From an uncultured Candidatus Saccharibacteria bacterium (GTDB taxonomy: Bacteria > Patescibacteriota > Dojkabacteria > SC72 > WJKH01), in contig CAZRRH010000001.1 in the NCBI GenBank assembly GCA_964602665.1, forward strand, positions 8,414 through 72,413: DNA of 64,000 nt, read 5' to 3'. Made by a program: the position numbers and the translations under genes. Below the pieces are notes generated by a model. That model searched no databases. It was given only the letters and a program-made list of their open reading frames with translations, and had not been told where the DNA came from. This document shows positions 31,930 through 49,170 of this stretch, one piece after another; within the stretch, counting starts at the first letter, position 1, and each line of letters starts with the position of its first letter.

Positions 31930-32350
31930 GGGGACGCAAGGCTTTCGACAGGGATTGTCTTCTTTATATTACAAGCAGGGTTTGACTCACCTTTATAATA
32001 GAGTCGGCAAAATAACTGCCAAAACAAATATTGCAACTTGGATAAGCGAGAAAGCACAGAATTTGTTTGCCTCACTAAGGCCAGCATTTCAGTACCAACT
32101 CCTTGCCTAGTTTATCTCTAAGGAGATACGCTTTTAATCACTCCTCCCAAATCGAGGGGTTATAGGCGGCTAAGAGGTTTGGGTGTAGCAAGATGGCTTC
32201 TCTTGGCCAAGCTATCTTGTCAAATTTATGTGCCAGGCGTGTTATCTTTTTTGCTCACTTAAGATGATAGCATGTATAACAAGTGAGATAAGCTTGTATA
32301 ATAGTATGAGGAAGGATTTCTGGATATGGGTTCAATTCCCGTCGTCTCCA
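31930..32350 (+). ncRNA. ssrA: transfer-messenger RNA (tmRNA)
   Basis: 5' end GGGGACGCAAGGCTTTCGACAGGG (the tmRNA acceptor and D-analogue signature). The 3' end GGGTTCAATTCCCGTCGTCTCCA has a T-arm and an acceptor strand complementary to the 5' GGGGACG. CCA is not encoded. A candidate tag frame ends ...ASLRPAFQYQLLA before a TAG at 32108-32110. Confidence 0.8.
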
Positions 32351-33138
32351 ATTGGGAATATTTGAGTTAGACCAGCACAGGTTTCAATTATTCTATAAAA
32401 ATCTCCTAGACTAATACCTATTGTTCTATTATATGTATCCCATCTTTTTGGTATAGCCATTGTGAATCCACGATCATCTAGCATCAATCCTAAATCGTCA
32501 TATCCATAAGTTGTTCTTTTTCTATGAAAAGGCCCGTCTTTTTTTCTTTCATATTCCCCTCTTATCAACATCATTAGTGCGGGAGTTCTTATCATATAAG
32601 CATCAGGAGAAAATAAATGCTGTTGAACAGAGAGAGATCTCACATATGGAGTATGTCCGTTATTTTTGTTTCTTCCAAGTTTTAGTACGGCAAGCGAAAT
32701 AGTAGGAATCCATCTGTTATCAATTCTTATTCTAGGCAATAAGAAAGCACATGCATTACTATAAGGATCAATAAACCCATGAAATCTTGGATTAATTTCA
32801 TTTAATCAAGTATCTGCAAGGATCCCAAGCATTGAATCTTGATTAGCTGGTACCATTTCAACAGGATTTGTTGTGTTTTCATCTATGCAGACAGAGATAC
32901 TTCTAACCGGAGAATGCCAATTTAGCACCTTTCCGGACCAAGCTTCAGTGGCTTCTTGGCAACCATCCGCAAATGTCATTCCTAAAAATCCCCACCTTTC
33001 TGGTAGAACTGTCTTTTGAAGCAATGGATGAACAACCTCTTTGCTTACACTTGCACCTTCTCTAGCAAACCCGGGCGTTTGCCCGTTTTCATCACCAAAC
33101 ATCATATTTGCAAGTGTTAAATTGCCGTTATTTTCCAT
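32332..33138 (-). pseudogene. hypothetical protein gene interrupted by an in-frame TGA (two same-frame ORFs); about 45% GC island abutting the tmRNA 3' end
   Basis: The ORFs at 32806..33138 and 32332..32739 are in the same frame. Translating across 32740-32805 gives ...GILADT-TGA-LNEINPRFHGFIDPYSNACAFLL-PRIRIDNRW... with no other stop. The TGA is at 32806-32808. Local GC is about 45% against about 30% genome-wide. The 3' end overlaps the tmRNA 3' end by 19 nt. I could not assign a family. Confidence 0.35.
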
Positions 33139-36200: not shown

Positions 36201-36398
36201 TTGAGTGGCAATACAGGATTATACAACTGCAAAGCCCTAGGATATCACCTACACTTAGAAACGCGTACAAAATCAGCCTGGAAATCAGATGTTAATCCTA
36301 TTGGCCTAATAGATGTTGATTGGAATTTAATCCCAACACTTGGATACAAACAAAATCCGGGACGATTAACCGGCGAAAACCCTCATCCTTCATTCTAA
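33270..36398 (+). CDS. large secreted protein (1042 aa) with C-terminal M23 (LytM-type) metallopeptidase domain
   Basis: Signal peptide MRILRKIYAISAGIALLFSPSFTFAQE. Central repeated beta-rich (FN3/Ig-like) regions. C-terminal M23 motifs HRGIDFGA ... GNTGLYNCKALGYHLHLE (HxxxD ... HxH). Confidence 0.7.
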   Translation: MRILRKIYAISAGIALLFSPSFTFAQEQSQIAITEDSYAQSGYPTASAWDNRNFYIGYDFIYDKGITRAYLKYDFASLFTLVPDKDNLLQANLSIYDYIDNGFSNRDIQIYRIASPWQESTLNWNNQPDVEYESSFLLKAPLGQKNIDITNIVKRDIEEKNSYGLAIFYENEFDPGTIFWSTSCFIAPTSPRCQEGQQPIIIISYEAIPTNLPPSKSSLISPQSSFSTNSNNINFSWEESLDPEQDPVFYQLRISKDPQYDQQIYSSQWISQNDLEIDTSNFTDAQYFWTVISTDNTEDSNKYVISDSLIFTVDRIAPSIPVFEPLPPYNSEDFIALKWSGQIIEDSCFEISHVNTNVIYNTSDNFLKIENLDENEHCFLIRATDITGNVSDWSLPSCIKQDYSFPVLKGFDVDNQYLSPYSSKDIADFAKISYNFIEENIKEAKIVVIDQWHNDFYSYNINDKNGNVIFPPADQTIIDGKYFAYLIIFDNTDKYSKSNIIEIYVDNYPPLTPKIDIMSFKAVFNKTEIPIKIITDYETENSLLINNIPIFNWSNNSILDYTLSTNFIQGQNIIKVISKNKFGNSAIGQNLFVFDSIPPQKPSLELITSTNMLHGNIKGSDYSRAYIYNLAGLHKIINFTTSNFVLETALIGDTNYSYTVKLEDKAGNLSPQSDPASYYHSVINPNTNSLPSNQSKIEAKNSICEIKVNYEKKNAQVVNCTLESPIINKILHDKSSQEYQMSIDLSFNKEIKLIINEYDCTPKSLWNPKTWFGCLERFIKSETIYVKSTGCFEAQIDNNKQQIAQQTSNPNNLYNINLLTPTDYTGKKVKVASTVYFSYNLKNGLSINYSGKSKYSALATVPKAITNTTNGTNKPFRFPFNKHVGVTQWYGNTKYQSPHRGIDFGAKQEALYAMADGYIEKMGWETTKNKCLSGGNIMLIRHDNGYYTLFAHMENFQKANGKSWKVGDRVLRGDKVGLSGNTGLYNCKALGYHLHLETRTKSAWKSDVNPIGLIDVDWNLIPTLGYKQNPGRLTGENPHPSF

Positions 36399-36418: not shown

Positions 36419-37141
36419 ATGAAAAAGAACAAAATAAGATTTTTTCTAGTTATTCTTTTTATTGCTTTTCTAATCTCTGCGATTTTACTTCTATTTAAAT
36501 CAAAGCTTTTACCAGCAAAACAAACTATTCGCGATGTTAAAAGCACGATTTTATTTAGCACAGCAGATATTAAAAACCCAAGTTATCTTTTTTGGCAAAA
36601 TAATGATTCCTTACTTGTAGTAACTGATCAAGGAGAGATCTATCAAATAAGCGATTCGGTCTCTTTGGTATCATCTATTGATAAAATTTCTCTTCTTGGA
36701 ATAAGAGGTAACGAGCTGATTACCTGCGAGACAAAAAATTATGAGATTTCATCTCCAGAACAGATTGCGAGTAAGATAATAGTTAAAAATCTAAGCAATC
36801 AAGAAATTATTACACAAGTAGAAACAACAGAAAGTATTATTCCACTTAACTGTGCCTTACCAACCTTTTATGCAATGCCTGCATATTATTTCTTAGAAGA
36901 ACAATTTTTCATTGTTAATGCCGATTCAATTCCCACTTCAATAGAACAAATTAGCACTATTCCAAGTAAAGAGTATAATTACACAGATAATGGCATTCTT
37001 TTTACAGATGATTATATTGGCAAATCTGCGACTCTAATCACCGATGACAGCTTTGATTTAAAAGATTTTGCTATCTCAGATGATGAACACAAAATTGCAC
37101 TTATCCTAAAAGATGGTGGAGTAATAATTTTTAGACTTTAA
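36419..37141 (+). CDS. hypothetical membrane-anchored or secreted protein (240 aa)
   Basis: Start taken at the internal ATG, MKKNKIRFFLVILFIAFLISAILLLF (signal anchor). The listed upstream extension would overlap the M23 gene by 79 nt. Confidence 0.4.
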   Translation: MKKNKIRFFLVILFIAFLISAILLLFKSKLLPAKQTIRDVKSTILFSTADIKNPSYLFWQNNDSLLVVTDQGEIYQISDSVSLVSSIDKISLLGIRGNELITCETKNYEISSPEQIASKIIVKNLSNQEIITQVETTESIIPLNCALPTFYAMPAYYFLEEQFFIVNADSIPTSIEQISTIPSKEYNYTDNGILFTDDYIGKSATLITDDSFDLKDFAISDDEHKIALILKDGGVIIFRL

Positions 37142-38018
37142 TAATTCCCTTAGCTTTTAAATATGCCTCTTTTTCTTTCCTAAAACTATTAATTGCCATG
37201 TTCTGTTTTATCTGTTCAATAATTTGCAATAAGACAGTAAAAACAAGATAAAAATATGTTTTTTGGGCTGCCTTTTCTGCATTAACTTCATCTTCTATTA
37301 TCAAAAAGAATGGAACCATTATAAGCTGTATTAAAGCAACAATGCCAATAAATCTACTATCAATTCCATAAATCATGAAAACCGCAAACAAGGAAGCCCA
37401 TATTGCTAAAGTTACTCCCCAAAAATAGTATATACATACAAAAACGGCAGAAATTATTAACATGGATAAGGGTTTTCTAGCAATCTTTCTTAATGAAATT
37501 ATAATTTCTCGGAATATACTATATTCAAATTCTTCTTCGTTGAAACCTGAGTATTTATCAATAAGTTCTTTTCTGATATAAAGACAAAAAGGTTTGCTTT
37601 CAGAAATGTTTTGTGGTACAACAAAGCCGTTATTCTCCTCTATCTCTCCCTCAGATTCATAAATTGGTTTTGCTTCATCCATATTCAAGAATACATTGCA
37701 AGTTTTATTTTTATCTGAATAAGCAAGATATTCCAGAAAATTAAAAAAAACTCCTGGGTAGAGGTCTAAAAACTCCGTAGAGTTAAAAATTACGACATCA
37801 TCATTAATATGCTTAAACGCTTTATTTACTGACTTTATAAATCCAAGCCTCTTTCTGTTACGAATCAGTACTACATTATGTAATTTTATCTTCTTCTCTT
37901 TTGAGGCATCATCAACGACTATTAATCGATATTTTCCAGCATAGATACTATCTATCTTGCCTATAAAGTTTTCTACTAGTGCGAAGTTATTTCTTGCAAC
38001 AACAATTACATTTATCAT
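37131..38018 (-). CDS. GT2-like N-terminal domain fused to a C-terminal polytopic membrane region
   Basis: IVVARNNF...YRLIVVDDAS (GT-A beginning), then several TM helices. 295 aa. Last gene of the ECF-sigma operon. Confidence 0.4.
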   Translation of the reverse strand: MINVIVVARNNFALVENFIGKIDSIYAGKYRLIVVDDASKEKKIKLHNVVLIRNRKRLGFIKSVNKAFKHINDDVVIFNSTEFLDLYPGVFFNFLEYLAYSDKNKTCNVFLNMDEAKPIYESEGEIEENNGFVVPQNISESKPFCLYIRKELIDKYSGFNEEEFEYSIFREIIISLRKIARKPLSMLIISAVFVCIYYFWGVTLAIWASLFAVFMIYGIDSRFIGIVALIQLIMVPFFLIIEDEVNAEKAAQKTYFYLVFTVLLQIIEQIKQNMAINSFRKEKEAYLKAKGIIKV

Positions 38019-38023
38019 ACGAT

Positions 38024-39793
38024 TTAGTCACTTACCACTGTACCACCCCACTCAAACATAAAGAAGCCTTCTCTATTAACCTTCTCTATCTTAGGACTAT
38101 CAATTTGTATCGGATTATCAACGCCCTTAAACAACATTAAGTATCTTTTGTAGGAGTCAACCTTAGGTTCTATACTTATAGGAGCAAGATAATCAAGGAA
38201 TTTCTCATCCCTATAAGAAATCAAAACATAAGGAGAATCCATTTCCGCGACTTTAGCAACCCAGTACTCCTTAAATTGACCGCTTTCTTTTTGATTAAAG
38301 CCCATACCTGGCAATGTTCTTGATAAGAACTCCTCTATTTCACCCTTTTTTATACACCAACCTGTTGAAAAATCCTCAACATTAATCTCGCTCATCCCAT
38401 CCCAAAAAAGATAATCATATTTATTTCCATCATTATCAGTAAGTATGGAACCTGAAGAAGCTTTAACTTCCCATCTTCCATTATATTTTGGAATAGTTCT
38501 TCTTAACTCTCCTTTAAAATCAATCCTCACAACAACATCGGTTGCTTTTGGAGGATAGAGATAAATCACTGGCTTTGCAATTCCGCCTTCATATACAAAA
38601 TCTTGGTTTGTCATTCTAACCCATCTTCCCATAAAATCTTTCCAGTAAGCAACTGGAGCATATTTATAGCTTTGTTCATAAGTAAATGGTGTAACATCAT
38701 CTTCTGTCATCAAGTTGTATTTATAATGTGCAAAATTGTTGTTAAGATAATCTTCTGTATAAATCTTTTTGGCATACTCATCTTTATTCATATCTTTATA
38801 TCGATATAATTTCTCACCACTTGTATGTACAGCAAATAATTCAAGATCACTTTCGTTTAACTCGACAACATCAATCGAATTAAGGATGTATTGCCCCTTA
38901 ATATCCATACTAAACCAAGGTTGATATGAGTCCAAAGAGCTGTCAACCCAAACAAGCTTCTCTTTACCGTCAGAGCCGTGATTTATTGGATTAACAAGAT
39001 AATTTTGCGAATAAAAATCATCAAAAATGTTAATGTACAAAATCCTGTTATCAGAATCCTCTTCGTCTGAATATATTGCATATTTTGTGCCTTCAAATTC
39101 GTACTCTTTTTTTAATTCAACAGAATTTTCATCTAATAAGACAATAGATTCAAAGAATATCTTTTCATTATATGTAGAGTCTATTGGTATATTTGCAAGG
39201 CTTTTTGATAAATTAAGCTCTGAATCTATAACCACATTACTATTTGGTACAAAAAAACTAGAGCCTTCCCCCTCATCAACATTATAAAATCTTTTTCCTC
39301 CAAGAGTATATTTACCATCTTTTTCTAAAATCTCAATTTCAACAGGGGTCCTACTGTCATAAGAAGTTAGAAATATCCCGTAAAAATAATTTTGATATTC
39401 TTCAAGATCATTAGTCAAAACCCCAAGAATAATTCTACTGCCAGAGAAATCACCGTCTGTAATCTCTCCTACTTCATAATATTGATAATATTTATCAGGA
39501 TCAAGCCCTGCATAATTTGTCGTAAAAAGATTAATATCAGAAACGGTTTTTTTGCTCTGATTTATTGCAAGTTCTGATTTCGGTGCGCTATCAAGATATC
39601 CTCCTTTAAAAACAGCGGGTGTTGTTGGATTATCATCTATATCAACTGGATCTTCTATATTTGGCCGTGGATCAACATCCACTATTGTTGATCGCTTAAC
39701 TAAAACAGCTATCAAAACAGCTGTTACGACAGATCCTATAACACATAAGCTCAGCAAGCCAACAATCAAAATTGTAATATGTTTTTTTTCCAT
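38024..39793 (-). CDS. hypothetical secreted or membrane-anchored protein (589 aa)
   Basis: N-terminal TM anchor ITILIVGLLSLCVIGSVVTAVLIAVLV. No recognisable family. Translationally coupled context (5-nt and 17-nt gaps). Confidence 0.4.
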   Translation of the reverse strand: MEKKHITILIVGLLSLCVIGSVVTAVLIAVLVKRSTIVDVDPRPNIEDPVDIDDNPTTPAVFKGGYLDSAPKSELAINQSKKTVSDINLFTTNYAGLDPDKYYQYYEVGEITDGDFSGSRIILGVLTNDLEEYQNYFYGIFLTSYDSRTPVEIEILEKDGKYTLGGKRFYNVDEGEGSSFFVPNSNVVIDSELNLSKSLANIPIDSTYNEKIFFESIVLLDENSVELKKEYEFEGTKYAIYSDEEDSDNRILYINIFDDFYSQNYLVNPINHGSDGKEKLVWVDSSLDSYQPWFSMDIKGQYILNSIDVVELNESDLELFAVHTSGEKLYRYKDMNKDEYAKKIYTEDYLNNNFAHYKYNLMTEDDVTPFTYEQSYKYAPVAYWKDFMGRWVRMTNQDFVYEGGIAKPVIYLYPPKATDVVVRIDFKGELRRTIPKYNGRWEVKASSGSILTDNDGNKYDYLFWDGMSEINVEDFSTGWCIKKGEIEEFLSRTLPGMGFNQKESGQFKEYWVAKVAEMDSPYVLISYRDEKFLDYLAPISIEPKVDSYKRYLMLFKGVDNPIQIDSPKIEKVNREGFFMFEWGGTVVSD

Positions 39794-39810
39794 GATTAAT
39801 TAATTAAAAT

Positions 39811-42800
39811 TTAATTGTTTTTAGAAATAATCACTCTCTCATTTGCTTTAATTCCATTAATCTCGTCCGCACCAAGAATATAGTATGTACTGGTTCCTCC
39901 GTCAAAATCTCCCAAACTTTTTGCTCTGACAAGATAATTAAATCCATTGTAATTAGAAGAATAATACGGCGAGATTGTTGTAACGCCATAATTATAAGTA
40001 TATGTGCTATTAAAGCCCCAGTATTTATAATATTTACTGCGAACTTCGGATGGAATACTAAAAAATCCTCCGTCAAAGACATCAAGTCCTGATGGCACTT
40101 CATCTTTGACGACAACCTCATTTTTATTTTTGCTGTCCTCAATATTTATTTTTACGACATAATATTTACCTTCTTTAAGATCTTTTGCTAAAACCTGCTT
40201 ATTAGTATCTAAATCATAATACTCTCTAACTATATTTCCACCAGAATCACCTTGAGCTTCATCCTGTTTTACAATTTTTATTAGTACAAAAAGCTCTCCT
40301 AAATTATCAGATTTTAGTTTGATTTCATTTGAGCCGTTCTTAAGTTTACTCGGATCAATTGAATATATACAGCCCTTCTCTTTTACTTGAGCATCAGCCA
40401 ATTTCTCGTTATTAACAAATATCTCCATTGTTCCTGATTTAACAATAGAATTAATTCTTCCCTCTTCAGCCAAGGCAAGGACATACGATATCCTCTTATA
40501 ATCCTGCCTACTGTTAACAAACTGCATATTTCGATCCAAAAGCCACGATCTTACTTTATACTTTAACTGCCATTGATCGAGTGGTGCAAGTGCAAGATAT
40601 ACATTGCTTGTGACAATATCTGATACGGCAATATTCTTATAAAGTGAATCAACATCCTCCCAATATGCATATCTATCTCCTGACTTTACTGTCTGTAAAA
40701 GATATTTTACGAGTTCTTGAGCGTTCCCTGTGCTACCTATATTGTTATATGTAAGCATCAAAGAAGAAATAGCCACAGGAGAATTAACAAGTTCAGATGT
40801 TTCAAAACTCTCTCTCACAACCAGCATATATTGTATAACAACCGCTTTATCCAAATATGACAAACCGTATAAAGCAACAATTTTTTGTTCCAAAGTATAT
40901 TTCTCATCTCCAAGGATAAAAATGAAGTACGCTTTTAATCTTTCTATTCTACTATAATCAACAGATATGCCGTTTTTTTGCATACTATCTAGTGCCTGCG
41001 CCGCAAAAACAGATGATTCAATGTTCTCTGCATCATAGTCAAACCAACCAAACCCTCCAATTTCTGTCTGATTTTGGATTAACATTTCATAATAATCTTG
41101 TATTTTCTTATACAAATCGGCCTTCTGATAATCTGTAATTTCTAAGCTATCGTAATTTTTATACATATAGCTGTAGAAAAGGATAGAATTCGCAAGGTCA
41201 TTTGTTGATTTAAGCTGTGCAGAAGAAATAGATATAAAATCAGTTACAGGAAAAGATGGCGAAAGACAGACATCAACACTCGTAAACTCCTCTGAAATCT
41301 CGCCCAAATTGGCATCAATTGTAACTTCTCCTACATTGCTATCAAGTAAACCAGAAATACTTTCATTTTTCGTCTTACCTGAATTATAAATTGGAATCAT
41401 TACTGGTGTTTGTTCTGTTTTTTTATCGCCTATTTTAATGTACGGATAAATCTTGAGCTTATTATTAGAACCTGTTTCTAGAATTTCTATAGGTACATTT
41501 ATAACTTTTACTTCTTGCTTATCAACGATTATTTCCTCTTTCCAATCTTTTGTTACGCAACCAGTACATTCAAATCCTACTTCTGCTTCAAATTTATCAG
41601 AGTAATTCTTAACTATTAATGAAATTTCTGTCTTATCTGAACTTCTTACATACTCAGGAGTATTAACATCTACGAATTTATCAAGACGACTAACAATCTC
41701 GACTGAGTTTTGACCATATAAATCTTGAGGATTTGTTGCAGTAGCAGTAATTACCCATTTCGTAAGATTATTTGGCATCTTAAATCTTATTGTTCCATTT
41801 CCGCTTTGATCAGTATACACAGCTCCGAGATTAATAAAGTTACGGCTGTTTTTTGAAATCGATCCCGTTTTATTTATTTCATCTGTAAAACCAACATCAT
41901 CGCCATAATAATCTGGGCCAACATTATCAAAAATCGGTGTAGATCCAAAATATTTACTCCAATAACCACTATCAAAATCATAAAAAGGATTATTGATAGA
42001 ATTTGTAGTATAGCCAAAAGATAGATCTGCAACTCTTTTATCAACAACATATAAATTAATTAGTGCAGGAGTGCCCTGACCATCTTTTTTACTCTTTATA
42101 TTCAAAATCACCTCTTCATCTGGCTTGTACTCTGTTTTTTGAGTTTTCATATCAATATCTAAAACAGTACTTGGTCCATCAAATGACACATATGTACATT
42201 GCATAATAAACATTTTCTTGTTTGGATTCTTGCTGGCGACCTCTTTATCATAAAAATTTGAAGGCGATAAACCTACTGAGTAAGCACAAAGCCCAACAGA
42301 GCCTCTTGCATCATTAGGAATCTTTATTTTTCCTGTTGTACTTTTATCAAAAGTTACTGTGCTCCAATCACCTATTTTATCTGTCTGTACAAATATTGTA
42401 GCATTTTTATAAACATCGCTTTTTACAGTATATTCAATTTCCTGTCCTGGTTTTACTTCTGCATCATTATTTGCAGATATTGACAGTAACTCTTTATAGT
42501 CACCCCCACCGCTTCCAAATGATGTGACATAAACAGCTCCCAAATATTGCTTTACTAGGTCAGAATTCTTAGCATAAATAACGATATCATAGCTACCTCC
42601 GATAAGCTCATCAAATTGCCAAACTGCTTGACCTTTATCATCGGTTATAAACTCTTTTTCTGCAATGACTTTTTTATTAACTACATATGAGCCAGGATAT
42701 ATCATGGATTTCGTCTCATCATCATAATAAGGCTCTCCTGTAACATACTCTCTTACATTTTTTATAAGCTTTGCGCTAAACTCAACGCCGTTTAGAGGCT

Positions 42801-45192
42801 TGCCACTCCATATTTGATCAGCTAAAAATACGATTTCCACAGGTTTATTCTCTTGATAAAAAGATGCTATTCCATTTTCTGCAAACCTTATGTTAACAGT
42901 ATAATTTGAAACCAACAACAATTTTTGAGCGACGATACTGTCTTGAGCATTTCTTACTTGTAAAATAAGCGTCTTAAATGGACTACTGTTATCGTTTAAT
43001 TTTACTTGATAATCAGTGCTCCATTTTCCGTTTTTATCAAGAGTTATTTTCTCGTCATATATTGATACTGCTTCTCCATCGCCATAACCATAAAAAACTG
43101 AGTTAAGATCATATATAAAATCATCATAATTCCTCCCAGAGGTTTCAAGCCATGAATATTGGAAATCACCTTCATAAACAACCACTCGCATTTCTTGTGA
43201 TATAAGAGGCATTCCTGCGTAGTCTTCACCACTAAAATCTATCTTGACTTTTTCATTGGCAACAAGTTTCTGTTTATCGATTTGTAAATCATAAATATAA
43301 TCAGACTGTGTATTAGGCTCTACCATAATAAACTCCCTGCCAATAATCAGCCCTTGGTATTCAACAACAATTTCATATGACTTACTTTGAGTATTTGCCA
43401 GCAAATCAAAATTATCCTCTATATAACCAAACTGATTGTCCAAAACATAATCTTTTCTCTTTAAAACCGCTGTACCCTCTTTTATATAAACAGTCATTTG
43501 CTCACCTTCTAATTCCTCACTCTGAATATTACCCTCTAATTTTTTTACAAATATGCTGTAATTAACTGTGTCTCCAGGCGCATAAATCATCTTATCAGTA
43601 TCAACAAGAGCAGCGTTTGTTCTAACCGTTGTTTGTTCGTAAAAGCTGACATTCGCTCGATTACTTACAACTATCGTACCAACGGGGCTAGTTACTTTCA
43701 AAATATCACAGTTATCCATCTTAAAATAGCCTTTTTTATTTGTACTTGCTGTACAATCAGCTATCTTTTCATTATTGCTACCGTATGTAAACTTTGTTTT
43801 TCTACTGTTATAACCAACTATTTGAGCATCGCCTATTAGCTGTTCTTTGTCCATATTCCAAACCCAACCCTCAAGTTTTCCATCCAAGTAGCTTGAGAAA
43901 ACAGCCCCCTGTGAATATGAATAAACAATTAACTTCTGTCTAGAATTCTTGCTGTTTTTATACTGCAAAATGTATTGTCCATCTTGAACCGGTTTATACT
44001 CAAAATCAAAATTACCAAAGCCATAAGGGTAATCTTTTGTGTACACTATTTTGGCAGAATCAGGAATAGCTTTTAAAATTCCATCTGTATACAAAATATT
44101 TTCAATCAAATCGTCTGCCTCAATAGAATAAATATTTATAGTAAAAACTGTATCAGAAGGAAACCCAGAGTAATAAAACCTCTCAAATATCTTATCATTA
44201 ATACTCATATGAGTACTATCAAGATAATTTGTACCAATAAATTGTTTATCATCCAAAATTTTACCTGCCCTATCTTGATCAGTCGTGCGGAAAGTAAATT
44301 TACTGTCGTAATCAATTGTTTCACCATCTAAAGTCGCAATTCCTTTTTTTACAACAACTGAGTAATCTGTGTTTATCAAAAACGGAGTTTCTGGCATAAA
44401 CAAAACTTTTGTTCCATACTGTGTAAATTTACCGCTGATCTGAGGATAAACATCTATATAATCAGTAAGCTTATTGATATCAACATTTTTTTTGTTAAAC
44501 TCAAACTCTATCGTGCTATCATAAGGAACATTTGTTGTATTATTTCTTGGAGTAGTGGCAAGAAGAGCAAATTTAGGATTAACTGTGTATTTCCAAACAA
44601 GATCATTCTCCAAAACAGCATCATTACTAAACTTTGTCCCGGCAGGGATAATAATGCTGTACTCTTGTCCCTCGATTAAACTTGACTCGGGCTTAATCAA
44701 TATTTGCTGATTACCCGCTGAATCTTTTGTTGCCTCAAATACAATTTCTGTTTCAGGCTCAATACGAACTATTTTATTAATATTGCCTTTTATTTCGCCA
44801 TTAATTTCTAATGTAAAAGTACTATCCTGTGTTAGATATCCTGACTGAGTAAATTGCTGTGGCTCTATACTCATAGCAGGAGCAGCAGGTAAAATTTTAT
44901 AATCAGAAATACTCTTATCTTGCTGTCTAAACACACCAACCAGATACAAGATACCAAATAAAAAAATAAAACTCGTTAAGAGTGCAAGAGAGCCAAATAC
45001 AAATTTTTTACCGCCTTTACTCTCTGCAAAAGCACCTTTTTCTATTTTCTTTGCGATCACGAGATTAGAAGATTTTTCAGATTCGCTCACACCTAAACTA
45101 GACAGCTTCTGTGCTAATTTTGCGTCAAGGGTGGCAAAATCTTTGCTTTCTTCCACTTTCTTAATTTTTTTTATCAAACTTTTTATGTCCAT
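39811..45192 (-). CDS. giant (1793 aa) membrane-anchored alpha-2-macroglobulin-family-like protein without a CxEQ thioester motif
   Basis: Cytoplasmic N-terminus of about 65 aa, one TM (FVFGSLALLTSFIFLFGILYLVGVF), a long series of Ig/MG-like beta domains, a TED-like region with GGFGWFDYDAENIESSVFAAQAL (compare A2M/C3 GGF/GGGYGSTQ...ALAQY), and a C-terminal receptor-binding/MG8-like VVVKDEVPSGLDVFDGGF. No CxEQ found. The corresponding position reads CLSPS. Confidence 0.45.
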   Translation of the reverse strand: MDIKSLIKKIKKVEESKDFATLDAKLAQKLSSLGVSESEKSSNLVIAKKIEKGAFAESKGGKKFVFGSLALLTSFIFLFGILYLVGVFRQQDKSISDYKILPAAPAMSIEPQQFTQSGYLTQDSTFTLEINGEIKGNINKIVRIEPETEIVFEATKDSAGNQQILIKPESSLIEGQEYSIIIPAGTKFSNDAVLENDLVWKYTVNPKFALLATTPRNNTTNVPYDSTIEFEFNKKNVDINKLTDYIDVYPQISGKFTQYGTKVLFMPETPFLINTDYSVVVKKGIATLDGETIDYDSKFTFRTTDQDRAGKILDDKQFIGTNYLDSTHMSINDKIFERFYYSGFPSDTVFTINIYSIEADDLIENILYTDGILKAIPDSAKIVYTKDYPYGFGNFDFEYKPVQDGQYILQYKNSKNSRQKLIVYSYSQGAVFSSYLDGKLEGWVWNMDKEQLIGDAQIVGYNSRKTKFTYGSNNEKIADCTASTNKKGYFKMDNCDILKVTSPVGTIVVSNRANVSFYEQTTVRTNAALVDTDKMIYAPGDTVNYSIFVKKLEGNIQSEELEGEQMTVYIKEGTAVLKRKDYVLDNQFGYIEDNFDLLANTQSKSYEIVVEYQGLIIGREFIMVEPNTQSDYIYDLQIDKQKLVANEKVKIDFSGEDYAGMPLISQEMRVVVYEGDFQYSWLETSGRNYDDFIYDLNSVFYGYGDGEAVSIYDEKITLDKNGKWSTDYQVKLNDNSSPFKTLILQVRNAQDSIVAQKLLLVSNYTVNIRFAENGIASFYQENKPVEIVFLADQIWSGKPLNGVEFSAKLIKNVREYVTGEPYYDDETKSMIYPGSYVVNKKVIAEKEFITDDKGQAVWQFDELIGGSYDIVIYAKNSDLVKQYLGAVYVTSFGSGGGDYKELLSISANNDAEVKPGQEIEYTVKSDVYKNATIFVQTDKIGDWSTVTFDKSTTGKIKIPNDARGSVGLCAYSVGLSPSNFYDKEVASKNPNKKMFIMQCTYVSFDGPSTVLDIDMKTQKTEYKPDEEVILNIKSKKDGQGTPALINLYVVDKRVADLSFGYTTNSINNPFYDFDSGYWSKYFGSTPIFDNVGPDYYGDDVGFTDEINKTGSISKNSRNFINLGAVYTDQSGNGTIRFKMPNNLTKWVITATATNPQDLYGQNSVEIVSRLDKFVDVNTPEYVRSSDKTEISLIVKNYSDKFEAEVGFECTGCVTKDWKEEIIVDKQEVKVINVPIEILETGSNNKLKIYPYIKIGDKKTEQTPVMIPIYNSGKTKNESISGLLDSNVGEVTIDANLGEISEEFTSVDVCLSPSFPVTDFISISSAQLKSTNDLANSILFYSYMYKNYDSLEITDYQKADLYKKIQDYYEMLIQNQTEIGGFGWFDYDAENIESSVFAAQALDSMQKNGISVDYSRIERLKAYFIFILGDEKYTLEQKIVALYGLSYLDKAVVIQYMLVVRESFETSELVNSPVAISSLMLTYNNIGSTGNAQELVKYLLQTVKSGDRYAYWEDVDSLYKNIAVSDIVTSNVYLALAPLDQWQLKYKVRSWLLDRNMQFVNSRQDYKRISYVLALAEEGRINSIVKSGTMEIFVNNEKLADAQVKEKGCIYSIDPSKLKNGSNEIKLKSDNLGELFVLIKIVKQDEAQGDSGGNIVREYYDLDTNKQVLAKDLKEGKYYVVKINIEDSKNKNEVVVKDEVPSGLDVFDGGFFSIPSEVRSKYYKYWGFNSTYTYNYGVTTISPYYSSNYNGFNYLVRAKSLGDFDGGTSTYYILGADEINGIKANERVIISKNN

Positions 45193-45209
45193 AAGTTTAT
45201 GGATTTAAA

Positions 45210-45746
45210 TTACTTATTTGATTTAATTCTCTTAATCGCTCTATAATATCTCATTTTAACAGACCCCTCTTCTTCGTTTAAAATCTTTGCTATTTGTATA
45301 AATTTAAGATCATCAAATAATTTTAATGTTATGACCTCTCTGTCTTTTGGATCTAACTTTTCCAAGATTTCTTTCACTTTATCTCTTTCTTCCTGCGCAA
45401 TAATTTCATAAAGTGTGTTATCTTCCGCTACCGCCAATAAGTCAAAGATATCATCATCTTGCGCAGAGCTTATCTTTTGCACATTATTCTCTTTTTTGCG
45501 GTACGAATCAATTACCATGTTCCTTGCCACAAAATAAAGCCACGCCTGTACTCTCTTTTTATCTTTATTATATAAAATATCTTCATTCTCAAGCAATTTT
45601 ATAAATACATCGCTTGCAATATCCTCTGCAATTTCATTAGTTGAGACTTTTTTCCTTATGTACCAGTAGATTCTATCTCTATGTAAGTAATATGTCTTTG
45701 TAAAAATCTCGTCTCTTCTCATATATTTATACGATTTTCTACGCAA
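45210..45746 (-). CDS. ECF-type RNA polymerase sigma factor (sigma-70 family, regions 2 and 4)
   Basis: Region 2 ASDVFIKLLEN...AWLYFVARNMVIDSYRK and region 4 REVITLKLFDDLKFIQIAKILNEEEGSVKMRYYRAIKRIK. 178 aa. Confidence 0.75.
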   Translation of the reverse strand: MRRKSYKYMRRDEIFTKTYYLHRDRIYWYIRKKVSTNEIAEDIASDVFIKLLENEDILYNKDKKRVQAWLYFVARNMVIDSYRKKENNVQKISSAQDDDIFDLLAVAEDNTLYEIIAQEERDKVKEILEKLDPKDREVITLKLFDDLKFIQIAKILNEEEGSVKMRYYRAIKRIKSNK

Positions 45747-45753
45747 AAAGTAA

Positions 45754-46341
45754 CTAAAATAGCGACGCTTGTTTATGTTGCCCTTTTGTTAGATCAACAT
45801 TTGCATAACCTTTGCTCCAATCAATCTTTGTCTCCTTTAAGAACCCATCTAAATCATAATATTTTATATTACCATATTTGAGCCCATATTCATAAAGCTC
45901 CATCGTCAATAGCACATCCTGATCACAATATTTTTTAAGTTTATCTAAGTCCCCTTCCTCATAATACTTAACAGCATCAAGCCCACTGCCGATTTTCCCC
46001 TTACCAAGAGTTGCTTTGCATAAAATATCAAGTTTAATTCTAAAGCCTTCTGTTTTTTGGAAAGCAACCATCAAGTCGAGCATAGGAAGAGAATTGCAGT
46101 CCTGACCAAGATAATTTGCAATAATTGGCATATCAAAAGACAAAATATTATATCCCACAACCAAATCCGCATTAAAAAGAAGCTTCCTTAGTTTTTCATA
46201 ATCCTCTTTTTTATCCCAAATACTTATAACATTTTTTGTATCATAGTCAATACAACCACAATACGAAATTTCCATCTTCCTAAATGCTTCTGGAGAATTA
46301 TCTGTGACCGCAGATTTTGTTTCTATATCAAGAAAAATCAT
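45754..46341 (-). CDS. DEDD-family 3'-5' exonuclease (PolB-exonuclease-like)
   Basis: Exo I FLDIETKS, Exo II VGYNILSFDMPII, Exo III KYCDQDVLLTMELY. 195 aa. Confidence 0.55.
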   Translation of the reverse strand: MIFLDIETKSAVTDNSPEAFRKMEISYCGCIDYDTKNVISIWDKKEDYEKLRKLLFNADLVVGYNILSFDMPIIANYLGQDCNSLPMLDLMVAFQKTEGFRIKLDILCKATLGKGKIGSGLDAVKYYEEGDLDKLKKYCDQDVLLTMELYEYGLKYGNIKYYDLDGFLKETKIDWSKGYANVDLTKGQHKQASLF

Positions 46342-48035
46342 TTGTCAAGCTTTATCATATCATCAAATAAATCATCCTCAAATTTCTCTTTTGATAAAAT
46401 AATTACCGTTTTATCAACAAGAAATTTTCCCATAGCCAAAAGAATATCTCGACGGTTTTTAGGGTCAACAAAAACAAAAGGTTCATCCATTATGTAAATA
46501 TCTGCTTTTTTATACAACATCCTAGCAATAGCAATTCGTTGCCAATGAGCAGGTGATAAATCCATCCCTCCATTAAAAAACTTGCCCAACATTTGCTTGT
46601 CATTAATTTTTAGTTTAGCCATCAAAGAATCAATCTTCAAAATTTTCTTAACCTCTTCATATCGCTCATTGTTAATTTTATTTGGATTTAAAACAATATT
46701 TTCTTTAATCGTGAAATGATAACGATTAAAATCCTGATCTATTATAGACAATCTTTTTTTTAGCTCACCTCGGGCAAGCTCCCGGATAGAATGACCATTA
46801 ACAGTATAATCACCCGCTGTAATCTCATAAAAACCACAGAGAACACGCATAAGCGTTGTCTTACCACTACTATCCCCACCTACAAAAAGAACCTTACTTC
46901 CCGGCTCAATAGTAAAACTAAGATTCTCAAGTGATTTTGTATCTTTATTATGATATTTAAAATCAAGAGAATGAAATTGCAACCTTGGCACCCCTTTTTC
47001 TATAATTGTTTCTCCACTTGAGAGATCTCCAAATCCATCATAATTTATGAATTCATAATATTTATCAATATATATACTGTTTTTCTGCATCCAAAAAAGC
47101 TTATTAAAAATATTAAAAGCAGCACTGTATGCCGTTTTTATATAATTAAACAAAGCCTGGAAGTCACCAATGCTCATTTTGCGTATAATCGCAATCGCAA
47201 TAAGAAATATTGAGTAAAAACGAAAGACTGTTTGATCTAAAACGCCAAAAAATGTCTTATCTGTCCAATAATGCCAATCATATTTATCAAGCCCTCTGTC
47301 TTGTATGGAAAGCTTCTTGGCAAACATCTTCTTTAGATTACGAAAAGTTCTGCTAATCTTGAGCTCAGAAAAATTGTTATAATCTGTCAAAAGAGATAGA
47401 AGATAATTTATAAGTTTAACACGATAAACATTTTTTTCTATATATTTGGCAATTTGTTTCTGACGATAAAGTTCAGAGATACATTCTGGAAGAACAAAAA
47501 CAAATACAAGCAGAGAATAGAGTCCCATAACACTAAACACAAAACCGATAACAGAAAAAAATCTGATAATCTGTCTTACAAACTCCGTAAAATTCTCATA
47601 AGCGGCAAAAATGTTTGTAACAGAATAACCCTGAACATATGCCAGCAAATCTTGAAACTTCTGATCTTCAAACTCTTGGAGATTTTGTGTACTTATCTTT
47701 TGTAAAACATTACCTTGAATCTGACGATAATAAGCTCTATAAATCTTATCTCGTAAAAAAGATCGCATATTTTGAGTTAAAAGTAGAATAATCCACAAAA
47801 AAAGATCGAGCGCAAAATACCAAAACGCTCTAGAATAAAAAAAACTATCAAGAGAAAAACTATCCCATGTCCCCAGTATTGTAACTGTCTCATCCAGGAA
47901 ACTACCCGCAACGGCTATACCAAGCATTTCAACAATTATCCCGACAACAAAAAGGAGATCACTAATAATTGCGAGTCCTGGCGCCGTTTTATATATTAAA
48001 AGGATGGCCTCAGGAAGATTACTTTTCTGCTTCAT
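46338..48035 (-). CDS. ABC transporter, fused permease and ATP-binding protein (exporter type) with a degenerate signature motif
   Basis: N-terminal 5-6 TM helices. Walker A GGDSSGKTT, signature LSPAHWQRIAIARML (LSGGQ degenerate), Walker B IYIMDEPFVFVD. Confidence 0.7.
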   Translation of the reverse strand: MKQKSNLPEAILLIYKTAPGLAIISDLLFVVGIIVEMLGIAVAGSFLDETVTILGTWDSFSLDSFFYSRAFWYFALDLFLWIILLLTQNMRSFLRDKIYRAYYRQIQGNVLQKISTQNLQEFEDQKFQDLLAYVQGYSVTNIFAAYENFTEFVRQIIRFFSVIGFVFSVMGLYSLLVFVFVLPECISELYRQKQIAKYIEKNVYRVKLINYLLSLLTDYNNFSELKISRTFRNLKKMFAKKLSIQDRGLDKYDWHYWTDKTFFGVLDQTVFRFYSIFLIAIAIIRKMSIGDFQALFNYIKTAYSAAFNIFNKLFWMQKNSIYIDKYYEFINYDGFGDLSSGETIIEKGVPRLQFHSLDFKYHNKDTKSLENLSFTIEPGSKVLFVGGDSSGKTTLMRVLCGFYEITAGDYTVNGHSIRELARGELKKRLSIIDQDFNRYHFTIKENIVLNPNKINNERYEEVKKILKIDSLMAKLKINDKQMLGKFFNGGMDLSPAHWQRIAIARMLYKKADIYIMDEPFVFVDPKNRRDILLAMGKFLVDKTVIILSKEKFEDDLFDDMIKLDK

Positions 48036-48086
48036 ATGAGATTATTCTACCATCTTTTAGACAAGTTTGATATATAAGCACAAAAA

Positions 48087-49091
48087 TCACTCACAAAGAG
48101 CAAATCCTTTGCCTTTTATTGTATAGATTATATCCTTATTTATTCCTTCTTCTTTTAGCCTTGTTCTTATTCTCTCTACAAGCTTTGTAATTGCATAAAG
48201 TGAAAATTTTTCATCAGAAAACTTACCCCAAATCACATCTGCTATTTCATCGTATGTTACGATCTTGTTACGATTCTCGATCAGTAATTTCAATATGCTA
48301 TACTGATAACTTCTTATTTTTATAACATTTTCTCCTGCATAGATATTGTCCCCATAGATATTTAGAACAGATTTAATAGGATAACCTATCTGTTTAAAAT
48401 ATTTAATCGACTCAATAGCCAGCTTGCCATTTTGATTGTTTTTTATACCATCAATCGTCGGAATATATCCTGTAAAAATATCAGCTAATTTAGTTTCCAA
48501 CAGTATAAAATCAACAACTCCTTCCTTAATCATCCAATCGCCCTTAAACAACGAAAGTCTCTTAATTCGTTCAGAAATTATCATCTCAAATAAATTAGCT
48601 AAGCTAGCATCTTTTCTTATAAATATCTTAACAATAGAGCTATCCACAAGAAAACTAGAATATTCGCTTGATATAGAGCCGTACGGAGTTGGATAAACCT
48701 CTACTCTTTTAATTCCTTTAAATAGTTTTGGCATATATTCAAGAAATAAGGACCATATCAAAGATGCTTTTTCCTCATACTCTTTTTTTAAAATGGAGAA
48801 ATTAAAGTCATCATACTCTAAATTATCGGCCAGTTTCTTTACAGTAGAATCTAGATTGTCATTAACTTTAGAGTAATATTTTTTAGGAATACTATCCCAA
48901 AAAGAGGACTCAAATAAGCATTTTAACGACGGGATATGTATAGTTGCAGAATTTTTACTTTGTAATTTTTTAGTGATTAGCATGTTATGGCTTTGAGTGA
49001 GCCCTTTTTTAATCTGATCACACTCAAAGAGTATTTTAACAGAATCAGTTATAGGCGTGTGCATCCAAACAGACTCCGGGACGTTATTCAT
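48087..49091 (-). CDS. transcriptional regulator with C-terminal OmpR/PhoB-type winged-helix domain and an uncharacterised N-terminal domain (no receiver)
   Basis: C-terminus RNKIVTYDEIADVIWGKFSDEKFSLYAITKLVERIRTRLKE...IYTIKGKGFAL matches Trans_reg_C. The N-terminal 230 aa has no phospho-acceptor receiver motifs. Confidence 0.6.
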   Translation of the reverse strand: MNNVPESVWMHTPITDSVKILFECDQIKKGLTQSHNMLITKKLQSKNSATIHIPSLKCLFESSFWDSIPKKYYSKVNDNLDSTVKKLADNLEYDDFNFSILKKEYEEKASLIWSLFLEYMPKLFKGIKRVEVYPTPYGSISSEYSSFLVDSSIVKIFIRKDASLANLFEMIISERIKRLSLFKGDWMIKEGVVDFILLETKLADIFTGYIPTIDGIKNNQNGKLAIESIKYFKQIGYPIKSVLNIYGDNIYAGENVIKIRSYQYSILKLLIENRNKIVTYDEIADVIWGKFSDEKFSLYAITKLVERIRTRLKEEGINKDIIYTIKGKGFALCE

Positions 49092-49170
49092 AATAATATT
49101 ATACTATAAACGATTAAAACTGTCAATGTGCATCTTTATGTATTTATACCAATAATTAGTAGCCATTTAT

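What the first reader, a model, noticed from the sequence alone, without database searches (positions are those of the whole stretch)
37131..49091. Eleven-kb co-directional operon: OmpR-type regulator, ABC exporter, DEDD exonuclease, ECF sigma, 1793-aa alpha-2-macroglobulin-like protein, 589-aa secreted protein and GT-like membrane protein
Seven minus-strand genes are packed with gaps of 4 to 51 nt, or overlaps. The ECF sigma factor is followed immediately, 17 nt later, by a giant protein. Its topology (about 65-aa cytoplasmic N-terminus, one TM helix, huge extracytoplasmic part) is that of an anti-sigma factor. Its extracytoplasmic part resembles a thioester-less alpha-2-macroglobulin. Bacterial A2Ms normally pair with PBP1c, not with an ECF sigma, an exonuclease and an ABC exporter. 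This may be a new envelope-surveillance or protease-trapping module under ECF control.
Basis: partly seen in the sequence, partly recalled or inferred. Interest (0 to 1): 0.6.

Follow-up and report, generated by a model that had tools for sequence, protein, structure and literature searches.

The report
ECF sigma factor paired with macroglobulin-like protein
In a tiny uncultured (Dojkabacteria-like) bacterium, a stress sigma factor gene sits just before a giant membrane-anchored protein built like the protease trap alpha-2-macroglobulin, so this protein may also be the sigma factor's sensor; the other five genes of the supposed operon look like unrelated neighbours.

Summary
The seven tightly packed minus-strand genes exist exactly as described, and most domain calls hold. 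The 1793-aa protein is a real alpha-2-macroglobulin (A2M) relative without a thioester. It has an N-in tail of about 63 aa and one TM helix.

The "eleven-kb operon" is a mosaic, not one module:
- The 334-aa wHTH protein and the 589-aa protein are missing from the nearest relative.
- The ABC transporter and the exonuclease are old neighbourhood residents. Exonuclease orthologues in other Dojkabacteria lie in unrelated contexts.
- Three related lineages conserve ABC-exo-sigma-A2M; the one contig that continues downstream adds the GT2-like gene.

A conserved ECF-type promoter (GTTAC-N16-CGT) lies directly before the sigma gene in all three lineages. It matches the GTAAC-N16-CGT motif found before 19 of 25 CPR (Candidate Phyla Radiation) homologues. 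This supports sigma-A2M as its own autoregulated unit.

In 66 of 74 homologous sigma loci the next gene encodes an N-in membrane protein with a comparably placed first TM helix. The A2M-like protein holds that slot, but its tail resembles those partners only weakly (p about 0.001-0.02). No sigma binding was tested.

The closest A2M relatives outside this family are canonical CxEQ proteins paired with PBP1c.

The parts
49098..49126 (-). Perfect sigma-70 consensus promoter (TTGACA-17-TATAAT) ending 6 nt before the ATG of the 334-aa gene. It implies a leaderless or near-leaderless transcript and is the most likely start of read-through transcription into the block.
   Evidence: 12 of 12 matches, the only one in 14 kb; sequence.
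48087..49091 (-). 334-aa protein with a C-terminal OmpR/PhoB-type winged helix (residues 257-332) and an N-terminal part of about 250 aa of unknown type. It has no receiver domain. It is lineage-specific and not part of the conserved core.
   Evidence: only the DNA-binding domain matches; absent from L001 and L008.
46338..48035 (-). ABC half-transporter (transmembrane part plus ATPase). Its signature motif is degenerate (LSPAH instead of LSGGQ) and it has no H-loop His. It overlaps the exonuclease gene by 4 nt. It is an ancestral resident of this chromosomal neighbourhood.
   Evidence: It is 75% and 67% identical in L001 and L008, and 35% identical over nearly full length to an ABC gene in Dojkabacteria CP129478 that has no adjacent sigma or A2M gene.
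45754..46341 (-). DEDD/RNase H-like 3'-5' exonuclease. It is a conserved Dojkabacteria gene whose neighbours vary between genomes, so it is probably unrelated in function to the sigma-A2M unit.
   Evidence: Homologues 40-57% identical lie in unrelated contexts.
45731..45754 (-). Candidate autoregulatory ECF-type promoter, GTTAC-N16-CGT, ending 8 nt before sigma ATG 45722. It overlaps the exonuclease stop codon.
   Evidence: The same motif lies at the same place in L001 and L008, and in L008 it is fully intergenic. Of 25 CPR sigma-homologue loci, 19 carry G[AT][AT]AC-N16-CGT within 150 nt upstream, against a background of 0.0026 per 150 nt. It is the only intergenic copy in the window.
45210..45722 (-). 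ECF sigma factor with regions 2 and 4 only. The likely start is ATG 45722 (170 aa). The TTG at 45746 lies inside the predicted promoter.
   Evidence: TIGR02937 80 bits against a cut-off of 42.9. Gene callers give 170 aa for near-identical copies. Promoter geometry.
45003..45192 (-). Cytoplasmic N-terminal tail (residues 1-63) of the giant protein. It is Lys-rich and conserves an amphipathic pattern in residues 1-33. This is the candidate sigma-binding (anti-sigma) segment.
   Evidence: Three-lineage alignment. It is about 53% identical to L001 in residues 1-30. Similarity to CPR partner tails is weak. No Pfam or NCBIfam anti-sigma domain is found.
44932..45002 (-). Single transmembrane helix (about residues 64-87), N-in.
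   Evidence: Hydropathy scan; sequence.
39811..45192 (-). 1793-aa membrane-anchored, thioester-less A2M-like protein. Domain map by residue: Big_5 121-203 and 209-303; MG2 530-613; bait-region domain 909-1057; bait-like disordered loop about 1058-1117; A2M 1127-1200; alpha/alpha-toroid TED-like domain about 1314-1579; bMG10 1653-1769.
   Evidence: Only two close homologues exist among 5.8 billion proteins.
41845..42024 (-). Bait-like region (residues about 1057-1116). It is predicted disordered and is more variable than the protein as a whole.
   Evidence: pLDDT 22-41 at model residues 464-523. About 33% identity to L001 in this stretch against 48% overall.
41197..41220 (-). Position equivalent to the CxEQ thioester site. 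It reads AQLKSTND and has no Cys.
   Evidence: Alignment with the canonical CTEQ and CAEQ proteins. No C.EQ occurs anywhere in the window protein or in P0002.
38024..39793 (-). 589-aa N-terminally anchored extracytoplasmic protein. Its C-terminal domain of about 300 aa belongs to a very large uncharacterised family. The gene is absent from L001, so it is an accessory or an insertion.
37131..38018 (-). GT2-like protein with a cytoplasmic N-domain, no DXD motif and C-terminal TM helices. Its counterpart follows the A2M gene directly in L001.

Best explanation
The block is a mosaic of at least three units in a densely packed CPR (Dojkabacteria-like) chromosome.

(1) A lineage-specific wHTH regulator gene is driven by a perfect sigma-70 promoter.

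(2) A translationally coupled ABC-exonuclease pair belongs to the ancestral neighbourhood.

(3) The real feature is an autoregulated ECF unit. A GTTAC-N16-CGT promoter is followed by the ECF sigma gene, then the 1793-aa membrane-anchored thioester-less A2M-like protein, then (in this lineage) the inserted 589-aa gene, then a DXD-less GT2-like membrane protein.

Shown: membership in the A2M family, loss of the thioester, topology, adjacency in three lineages, and the conserved promoter motif.

Inferred: the A2M-like protein is the cognate anti-sigma factor and sensor. Its conserved cytoplasmic tail of about 63 aa would hold the sigma factor at the membrane. Its ectodomain would expose a bait-like loop on the cell surface of an organism presumed (from general knowledge of CPR, not tested here) to lack an outer membrane. 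Cleavage by a foreign protease, or the conformational change that follows, would make the protein a substrate for regulated proteolysis. That would free the sigma factor, which would then re-induce its own operon and replenish the trap.
For: - A2M family: Pfam A2M 5.7e-13, bMG10 1.4e-8, Big_5, MG2 and BRD. The AF2 model of residues 595-1793 matches ECAM and Salmonella A2M best (E 2e-46 and 6e-45).
- No CxEQ motif.
- Sigma and A2M genes are 17 nt apart here, 13 nt apart in L001 and overlapping in L008.
- The promoter motif is conserved in all three lineages and matches the motif upstream of 19 of 25 homologous CPR sigma genes.
- In 66 of 74 homologous sigma loci the next gene encodes a protein whose first TM helix lies at residues 30-210, as an anti-sigma factor's would. 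CPR partners share a short N-terminal helix motif and DUF5667.
- The tails of the A2M-like proteins align in register with that motif. They rank 1st, 3rd and 12th among 145 composition-matched N-termini. hhalign gives P = 0.001.
- Canonical membrane-anchored A2Ms (P0003, P0004) have N-terminal tails of only about 15-25 aa before the TM helix.
- Mosaic nature of the block.
Against: - No recognised anti-sigma domain is found in the tail. The control CPR partner is not recognised by these libraries either.
- Only three related lineages carry the pair, so the adjacency could be inherited synteny and need not reflect selection.
- A TM anchor is expected for any A2M in a bacterium without a periplasm.
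- No predicted terminator or transcript data separate the units. No site-1 or site-2 protease was looked for.
- Protease trapping by a protein with such a diverged TED-like domain is unproven.
Confidence: 0.5

Rival explanations
1. Effector only. The A2M-like protein is a membrane-anchored surface protease trap whose gene belongs to the sigma factor's regulon. It does not bind the sigma factor. The sigma factor is controlled only at the level of transcription or by an unlinked factor, and the cytoplasmic tail is just an anchor or spacer.
For: No anti-sigma domain is detected. The tail similarity to partner proteins is statistically weak. Membrane anchoring is also seen in canonical A2Ms P0003, P0004 and P0005, which have no adjacent sigma gene.
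Against: The tail is 63-95 aa long against about 15-25 aa in the canonical anchored A2Ms. Its first 30 residues are conserved at or above the protein average. The gene occupies exactly the slot that homologous sigma loci fill with a protein whose first TM helix is similarly placed, in 66 of 74 cases. No other anti-sigma candidate lies next to the sigma gene.
Confidence: 0.3
2. All seven genes form one functional envelope-surveillance operon, in which the regulator, exporter, exonuclease, sigma factor, A2M, secreted protein and GT-like protein act together.
For: The genes are tightly packed and co-directional, and no predicted intrinsic terminator lies between them. ABC-exo-sigma-A2M order is kept in three lineages.
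Against: The regulator and the 589-aa gene are absent from L001. The exonuclease lies in unrelated contexts in other Dojkabacteria. The ABC orthologue lies next to HSP20 and about 6 kb from the exonuclease in CP129478, where no sigma or A2M gene is present in the fetched region. An internal conserved promoter is present. Tight spacing is the rule across this genome.
Confidence: 0.07
3. Surface adhesin or structural protein. The thioester-less, diverged macroglobulin scaffold no longer traps proteases. It serves as a large surface or attachment protein of an episymbiotic CPR cell, either expressed under ECF control or itself acting as the anti-sigma factor.
For: There is no CxEQ motif. The TED-like domain gets no Pfam TED hit and only a weak match to prenyltransferase toroids. 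Two N-terminal Big_5 Ig-like domains and about 225 aa (residues 304-529) with no Pfam match are present. NCBIfam has no match.
Against: The full A2M domain order is kept, including the bait-region domain, a disordered bait-like loop, a TED-like toroid and MG10. Thioester-less MagD still traps a protease (PMC5764988).
Confidence: 0.13

Closest known systems
Type I bacterial alpha-2-macroglobulins (E. coli ECAM/YfhM, Salmonella Sa-A2M), encoded next to PBP1c
   Same: The overall domain order is the same: MG array, bait-region domain, A2M domain, TED toroid and MG10. These are the best structural matches (5a42, 4u48). The nearest sequence relatives outside the family (P0003, P0004) are of this type and are also anchored by an N-terminal TM helix.
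   Different: The window protein has no CxEQ thioester and no adjacent PBP1c gene; P0003 and P0004 have one. It has a long conserved cytoplasmic tail, an ECF sigma gene directly upstream, and only 20-22% identity to these proteins.
Type II bacterial alpha-2-macroglobulins (P. aeruginosa MagD, E. coli YfaS) in the six-gene mag operon
   Same: Both lack the thioester and keep a bait region. Both associate with the cytoplasmic membrane. MagD traps a protease non-covalently, which shows that a thioester is not required (PMC5764988).
   Different: None of the neighbouring gene products was identified as a Mag protein; this was judged from their Pfam annotations and was not tested against Mag sequences. 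Here the A2M-like protein carries its own TM helix and does not depend on a MagB-like partner. The host is a CPR bacterium and not a Gram-negative. Sequence relatedness to MagD or YfaS was not tested.
ECF sigma / single-pass partner pairs of CPR and Chloroflexi with DUF5667 (or FecR/DUF5666) ectodomains
   Same: These carry the nearest sigma relatives found (23-37% identical). They share the promoter architecture (GTAAC-N16-CGT against GTTAC-N16-CGT), the gene order sigma then partner, and a partner with an N-in tail and a TM helix.
   Different: The partner ectodomain here is a 1700-aa A2M scaffold in place of DUF5667. None of the 80 sampled loci has an A2M gene. The tail matches the partner motif only weakly.
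SigmaV-RsiV (an anti-sigma factor that is itself the receptor for lysozyme) and other anti-sigma factors controlled by regulated proteolysis
   Same: This is the functional analogy for the proposed mechanism. An anti-sigma ectodomain directly engages a hostile enzyme, and regulated proteolysis then frees the sigma factor (PMC4183432, abstract).
   Different: There is no sequence or domain relationship. The signal here would be cleavage or capture of a protease by a macroglobulin bait, which has not been shown for any anti-sigma factor in the literature searched.

Membership tests
Alpha-2-macroglobulin family (general) | MG-domain array plus the A2M domain | tested here: met
   Pfam A2M scores 48.9 bits (cut-off 21). 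MG2 scores 32.8 bits when the segment is scanned alone, exactly at the cut-off. bMG10 scores 35-40 bits (cut-off 26.2). Foldseek top hits are ECAM and Sa-A2M, E about 1e-46.
Alpha-2-macroglobulin family (general) | Bait-region domain with an exposed, flexible bait | tested here: met
   A2M_BRD scores 27.1 bits (cut-off 22.7) on the isolated segment. The adjacent loop at residues 1058-1117 has pLDDT 22-41 and is hypervariable. Cleavage by a protease is not testable here.
Alpha-2-macroglobulin family (general) | TED (alpha/alpha toroid) domain | tested here: inconclusive
   There is no Pfam TED_complement hit, only Prenyltrans at E = 0.011. The AF2 model has an all-helical domain at residues 1314-1579 with pLDDT mostly 75-90. 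The conserved GGFGW motif aligns with canonical TEDs.
Type I bacterial A2M (ECAM/Sa-A2M) | CxEQ thioester motif | tested here: not met
   No C.EQ occurs anywhere in the window protein or in P0002. The aligned site reads AQLKSTND.
Type I bacterial A2M (ECAM/Sa-A2M) | Adjacent PBP1c gene | tested here: not met
   The neighbours are the sigma gene, the 589-aa protein gene and the GT2-like gene. P0003 and P0004 do have Transgly+Transpeptidase+BiPBP_C genes downstream.
Type II bacterial A2M (MagD/YfaS) | Thioester-less A2M encoded within a mag/yfa six-gene operon | tested here: not met
   The protein lacks a thioester, which fits. The flanking gene products were not identified as Mag proteins from their Pfam annotations. 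Operon composition as described in PMC5764988. Direct sequence comparison with MagD was not done.
ECF (group 4) sigma factors | Only sigma regions 2 and 4, about 170-200 aa | tested here: met
   Sigma70_r2 and Sigma70_r4_2 match. TIGR02937 scores 80.2 bits against a cut-off of 42.9. No curated subgroup reaches its own cut-off.
ECF (group 4) sigma factors | Autoregulatory promoter with an AAC-type -35 element and a CGT-type -10 element | tested here: met
   GTTAC-N16-CGT is conserved in three lineages. Homologues carry GTAAC-N16-CGT in 19 of 25 loci. Promoter activity is not testable here.
Anti-sigma factors (class I ASD, zf-HC2/RskA types) | Recognisable anti-sigma domain in the cytoplasmic N-terminus | tested here: not met
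   Pfam and NCBIfam find nothing at E up to 10. There is no Cys or His for a zinc site. Control: partners of homologous CPR sigma factors are not recognised either.
Anti-sigma factors (functional class) | Gene directly downstream of the sigma gene; N-in single-pass topology | tested here: met
Anti-sigma factors (functional class) | Binds and inhibits the cognate sigma factor | not testable with these tools
OmpR/PhoB response regulators | N-terminal receiver (REC) domain plus a C-terminal wHTH | tested here: not met
   Only Trans_reg_C at residues 257-332 matches. All NCBIfam and PDB hits cover only the DNA-binding domain.
GT2 glycosyltransferases | GT-A fold with the DXD metal-binding motif | tested here: not met
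   Pfam covers only profile positions 2-84 of 168. The DXD position reads NST here and HHT in L001, against DGD in a typical GT2 from the same window.

The most novel reading that the evidence does not exclude
A complete macroglobulin scaffold has been recruited as the extracytoplasmic sensor of an ECF anti-sigma factor. In this reading, cleavage of the bait loop by a foreign protease, or capture of that protease, on the surface of a CPR cell is the signal that releases the sigma factor. The sigma factor then re-induces the trap. This would be a protease-sensing, self-replenishing defence circuit and a third genomic type of bacterial A2M.
Probability: 0.4. Interest if true: 0.7.

Novelty: new variant of a known kind. 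Interest (0 to 1): 0.5.

Why it matters
Bacterial A2Ms are known in two settings: Type I with PBP1c and Type II in the mag operon, both described mainly in Gram-negative bacteria. This family would be a third setting. It is membrane-anchored, lacks the thioester, is coupled to a sigma factor, and occurs in an ultra-small uncultured bacterium that probably depends on other cells.

If the tail binds the sigma factor, it would add a sensing principle to ECF signalling in which the anti-sigma ectodomain offers a bait to proteases. It would also give a concrete, testable example of envelope defence in CPR bacteria.

The analysis also defines features of a CPR/Chloroflexi ECF group that current domain libraries do not recognise. 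These are its promoter (GTAAC-N16-CGT) and the short N-terminal motif of its partner proteins.

Limits: only three related lineages carry the pair, none is cultured, and the key interaction is untested.

Tried and rejected
- Seven-gene functional module: rejected as the main reading after the synteny comparison.
- Metagenome scan with the family alignment: it found only the L001 contig again.
- Pfam and NCBIfam scans of the cytoplasmic tail at E up to 10: no anti-sigma domain.
- HMM of the CPR partner motif against the tail: 2.4-3.8 bits for the window and L001 tails (-1.2 for L008), not significant at database level. hhalign probability is 21%.
- phmmer of the A2M-like and 589-aa proteins against PDB: no hits.
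- Foldseek of the confident 589-aa C-terminal domain model against PDB: nothing at or below E = 0.001.
- PADLOC: only generic ABC ATPase hits, so no defence-system assignment.
- Other A2M-like proteins with unusual N-termini (P0007, P0009): no sigma gene nearby.
- A wider regulon: no second intergenic copy of the promoter motif in the window, L001 or L008.
- Literature: no paper links A2M with anti-sigma or ECF factors. The ECF reclassification paper mentions neither CPR, nor DUF5667, nor macroglobulin.
- Cluster look-up gave no organism names. The Dojkabacteria assignment therefore rests on one named exonuclease homologue and on synteny.

Full report
**Observation.** The seven minus-strand ORFs are at exactly the stated coordinates. 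Their spacings are 51 nt, a 4-nt overlap, 7 nt (or 31 nt), 17 nt, 17 nt and 5 nt. Plus-strand genes flank the block on both sides. The window has about 33% G+C and carries housekeeping genes: DnaK, PheRS, ThrRS, FtsK, DnaG and a tmRNA. An exonuclease homologue 57% identical is named Candidatus Dojkabacteria. The source is therefore a CPR (Candidate Phyla Radiation) bacterium, probably related to Dojkabacteria. Same-strand gaps of 1-44 nt and overlaps are common across the window, so packing alone does not show an operon.

**Gene identities.**
- The 334-aa protein has only a C-terminal OmpR/PhoB-type winged helix. It has no receiver domain.
- The 565-aa protein is an MsbA-like half-transporter. 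Its signature motif is degenerate (LSPAH) and it has no H-loop His. Both features are conserved in its orthologues.
- The 195-aa protein is a DEDD/RNase H-like exonuclease.
- The sigma factor is a plain ECF type (TIGR02937, 80 bits).
- The 1793-aa protein carries, in order by residue: Big_5 at 121-203 and 209-303, MG2 at 530-613, A2M_BRD at 909-1057, A2M at 1127-1200 and bMG10 at 1653-1769.
- The 589-aa protein has no Pfam match.
- The 295-aa protein has half a GT2 domain without the DXD motif, followed by TM helices.

**Conservation.** A search of 5.8 billion proteins found only two close relatives of the giant protein: a 99% identical copy, and P0002 at 47% identity. A metagenome scan added nothing.
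- P0002's contig (L001) shows DnaK .. RsmB .. [methyltransferase, 274-aa protein, 799-aa HATPase_c protein] .. ABC (75% identical) - exo (70%) - sigma (62%) - A2M (47%) - GT2-like (32%) - 254-aa protein - M23 peptidase. The 334-aa regulator and the 589-aa protein are absent there.
- A third lineage (L008) has HSP20 - ABC - exo - sigma - A2M N-terminus, cut by the contig end.
- Exonuclease orthologues 40-57% identical in other Dojkabacteria sit next to NifU/SHMT, ferredoxin or Sod/NUDIX genes.
- In the complete genome CP129478, an ABC orthologue (35% identical, near full length) lies beside HSP20, about 6 kb from the exonuclease. No sigma or A2M gene lies in the fetched region.
- ABC and exo therefore look like ancestral residents of this neighbourhood. 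The sigma-A2M(-GT-like) cassette looks like a lineage-specific addition.

**Promoters.**
- A perfect TTGACA-17-TATAAT lies 6 nt before the ATG of the 334-aa gene.
- Directly before the sigma gene, all three lineages share TTT-GTTACTTT-N13-CGT, which is GTTAC-N16-CGT. It ends 6-8 nt before the ATG. It overlaps the exonuclease stop codon here and in L001, but it is fully intergenic in L008.
- Among 25 CPR loci with homologous sigma genes, 19 have G[AT][AT]AC-N16-CGT (mostly GTAAC) within 150 nt upstream. The background rate is 0.0026 per 150 nt.
- This is the classic self-regulating ECF promoter layout. It supports sigma-A2M as a separate transcription unit and places the sigma start at ATG 45722 (170 aa, as gene callers give for near-identical copies).
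- No other intergenic copy exists in the window, L001 or L008.
- No convincing terminators are predicted, so read-through from upstream remains possible.

**The giant protein.**
- It has no CxEQ motif anywhere. The aligned site reads AQLKSTND, while the GGFGW motif of the TED domain is kept.
- An AF2 model of residues 595-1793 (pLDDT 65, with domains mostly 70-90) shows beta-sandwich MG domains, a disordered loop at residues 1058-1117, a helical toroid at residues 1314-1579 and a C-terminal sandwich.
- Its best structural matches are ECAM (2e-46) and Salmonella A2M, followed by TEP1, A2ML1 and C5.
- The next-nearest sequence relatives (P0003, P0004; 20-22% identical) are canonical CTEQ/CAEQ proteins followed by PBP1c genes. 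They are anchored by a TM helix after an N-terminal tail of only about 15-25 aa.
- The literature distinguishes Type I A2Ms (thioester, PBP1c neighbour) from Type II (MagD; no thioester, mag operon; still traps a protease) (PMC5764988). This protein fits neither genomic type.

**Anti-sigma test.**
- Eighty loci with sigma homologues (23-37% identical; CPR, Chloroflexi and others) were fetched. In 66 of 74 loci with a downstream partner of at least 100 aa, the partner's first TM helix lies at residues 30-210.
- CPR partners share an N-terminal motif (L..QLK.LK.I.P...W....R..LL.QI) followed by a TM helix and DUF5667. Chloroflexi partners have longer N-terminal domains and DUF5667 or FecR/DUF5666. 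None of these loci has an A2M gene.
- Pfam and NCBIfam detect no anti-sigma domain. They also miss the control CPR partner, so this negative result carries little weight.
- Position, topology, tail length and tail conservation therefore favour an anti-sigma role. Sequence similarity is only suggestive, and binding is untested.

**Mechanism and rivals.**
- Best reading (confidence 0.5): an autoregulated ECF unit whose anti-sigma sensor is a surface-exposed, thioester-less macroglobulin. Bait cleavage or protease capture would trigger regulated proteolysis and release the sigma factor, which would then renew the trap. The promoter, adjacency, fold and topology are shown. Sigma binding, the nature of the signal and the proteolysis step are inferred.
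- Rival 1 (0.3): the protein is an effector under sigma control and has no anti-sigma role.
- Rival 2 (0.13): the scaffold is an adhesin or structural protein that no longer traps proteases.
- Rival 3 (0.07): all seven genes form one functional module.

**Novelty.** No paper in the searchable library links macroglobulins with anti-sigma or ECF factors. The ECF reclassification paper does not mention CPR, DUF5667 or macroglobulin. This is a new variant of two known kinds: ECF sigma/anti-sigma pairs and bacterial A2Ms. It is confined so far to three related uncultured lineages.

**Side result.** The C-terminal 300 aa of the 589-aa protein belong to a very large family (5729 clusters at 50% identity). 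The family has no Pfam model. A confident AF2 model (pLDDT 91) has no PDB neighbour by Foldseek.

Noticed in passing
window 38024-39793 (-), residues about 290-589: The C-terminal domain of the 589-aa protein belongs to a very widespread uncharacterised extracytoplasmic family: 5729 clusters at 50% identity, with some homologues carrying SLH, Big_2 or ankyrin domains. It has no Pfam model. A confident AF2 model (pLDDT 91, pTM 0.81) has no PDB structural neighbour by Foldseek. Invariant residues include a KP..Y.Y motif near the domain start and EWGG at the C-terminus.
   Followed up: partly
window 49098-49126 (-) and 45731-45754 (-): Both promoter candidates end only 6-8 nt before their ATG. 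No Shine-Dalgarno-like sequence precedes the ABC, A2M or 589-aa genes. This suggests leaderless or near-leaderless expression and translational coupling in this organism.
   Followed up: partly
window 46338-48035 (-); L001 7084-8808; L008 7599-9302; L003 2229-4061: The ABC half-transporter has a degenerate signature motif (LSPAH, ISPGF or IPAGY in place of LSGGQ) and lacks the H-loop His. Both features are conserved in four Dojkabacteria-like homologues, yet the protein is 67-75% identical between lineages. It may be an atypical ATPase.
   Followed up: partly
window 37131-38018 (-); L001 15514-16446: The GT2-like membrane protein downstream of the A2M gene lacks the DXD motif (NST here, HHT in L001). 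It keeps the first DD motif and the C-terminal TM helices. It may be a pseudo-glycosyltransferase.
   Followed up: partly
window 56616-58316 (-) and 13208-14425 (-): The PheRS alpha subunit carries an N-terminal AlaX-like module (C-terminal part of tRNA-synt_2c plus tRNA_SAD). A separate 405-aa ORF holds only the AlaRS catalytic core. This could be a split or rearranged AlaRS.
   Followed up: no
window 31930-32353 (+): tmRNA gene with an unusually long predicted tag peptide of 30 aa (AKTNIATWISEKAQNLFASLRPAFQYQLLA).
   Followed up: no
L012-L082 (25 CPR loci), upstream of and downstream of the sigma genes: A CPR ECF group has a consistent GTAAC-N16-CGT(C/T) promoter. Its partner proteins share the N-terminal motif L..QLK.LK.I.P...W....R..LL.QI, then a TM helix and DUF5667. 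Pfam and NCBIfam do not recognise the cytoplasmic part. In L030 and L066 the promoter motif lies between the sigma gene and the partner gene.
   Followed up: partly
window 33270-36398 (+); L001 17252-20419: A 1042-aa M23 peptidase with CBM96 and Big_13 domains lies next to the cluster, separated from it by a conserved 273-aa ORF. It is syntenic in L001 (51% identical). It is another large envelope-active protein beside the A2M unit, and its relation to that unit is unknown.
   Followed up: no
L093 2548-7983 (P0009): A distant A2M-family protein (CxEQ type) has an N-terminal region of about 400 aa upstream of the A2M domains. It contains a zinc-ribbon-like CxxC..CxxC motif and hydrophobic segments, and the gene lies next to a FliG_N/FliH-like gene. 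This is another A2M with an unusual N-terminal extension.
   Followed up: no
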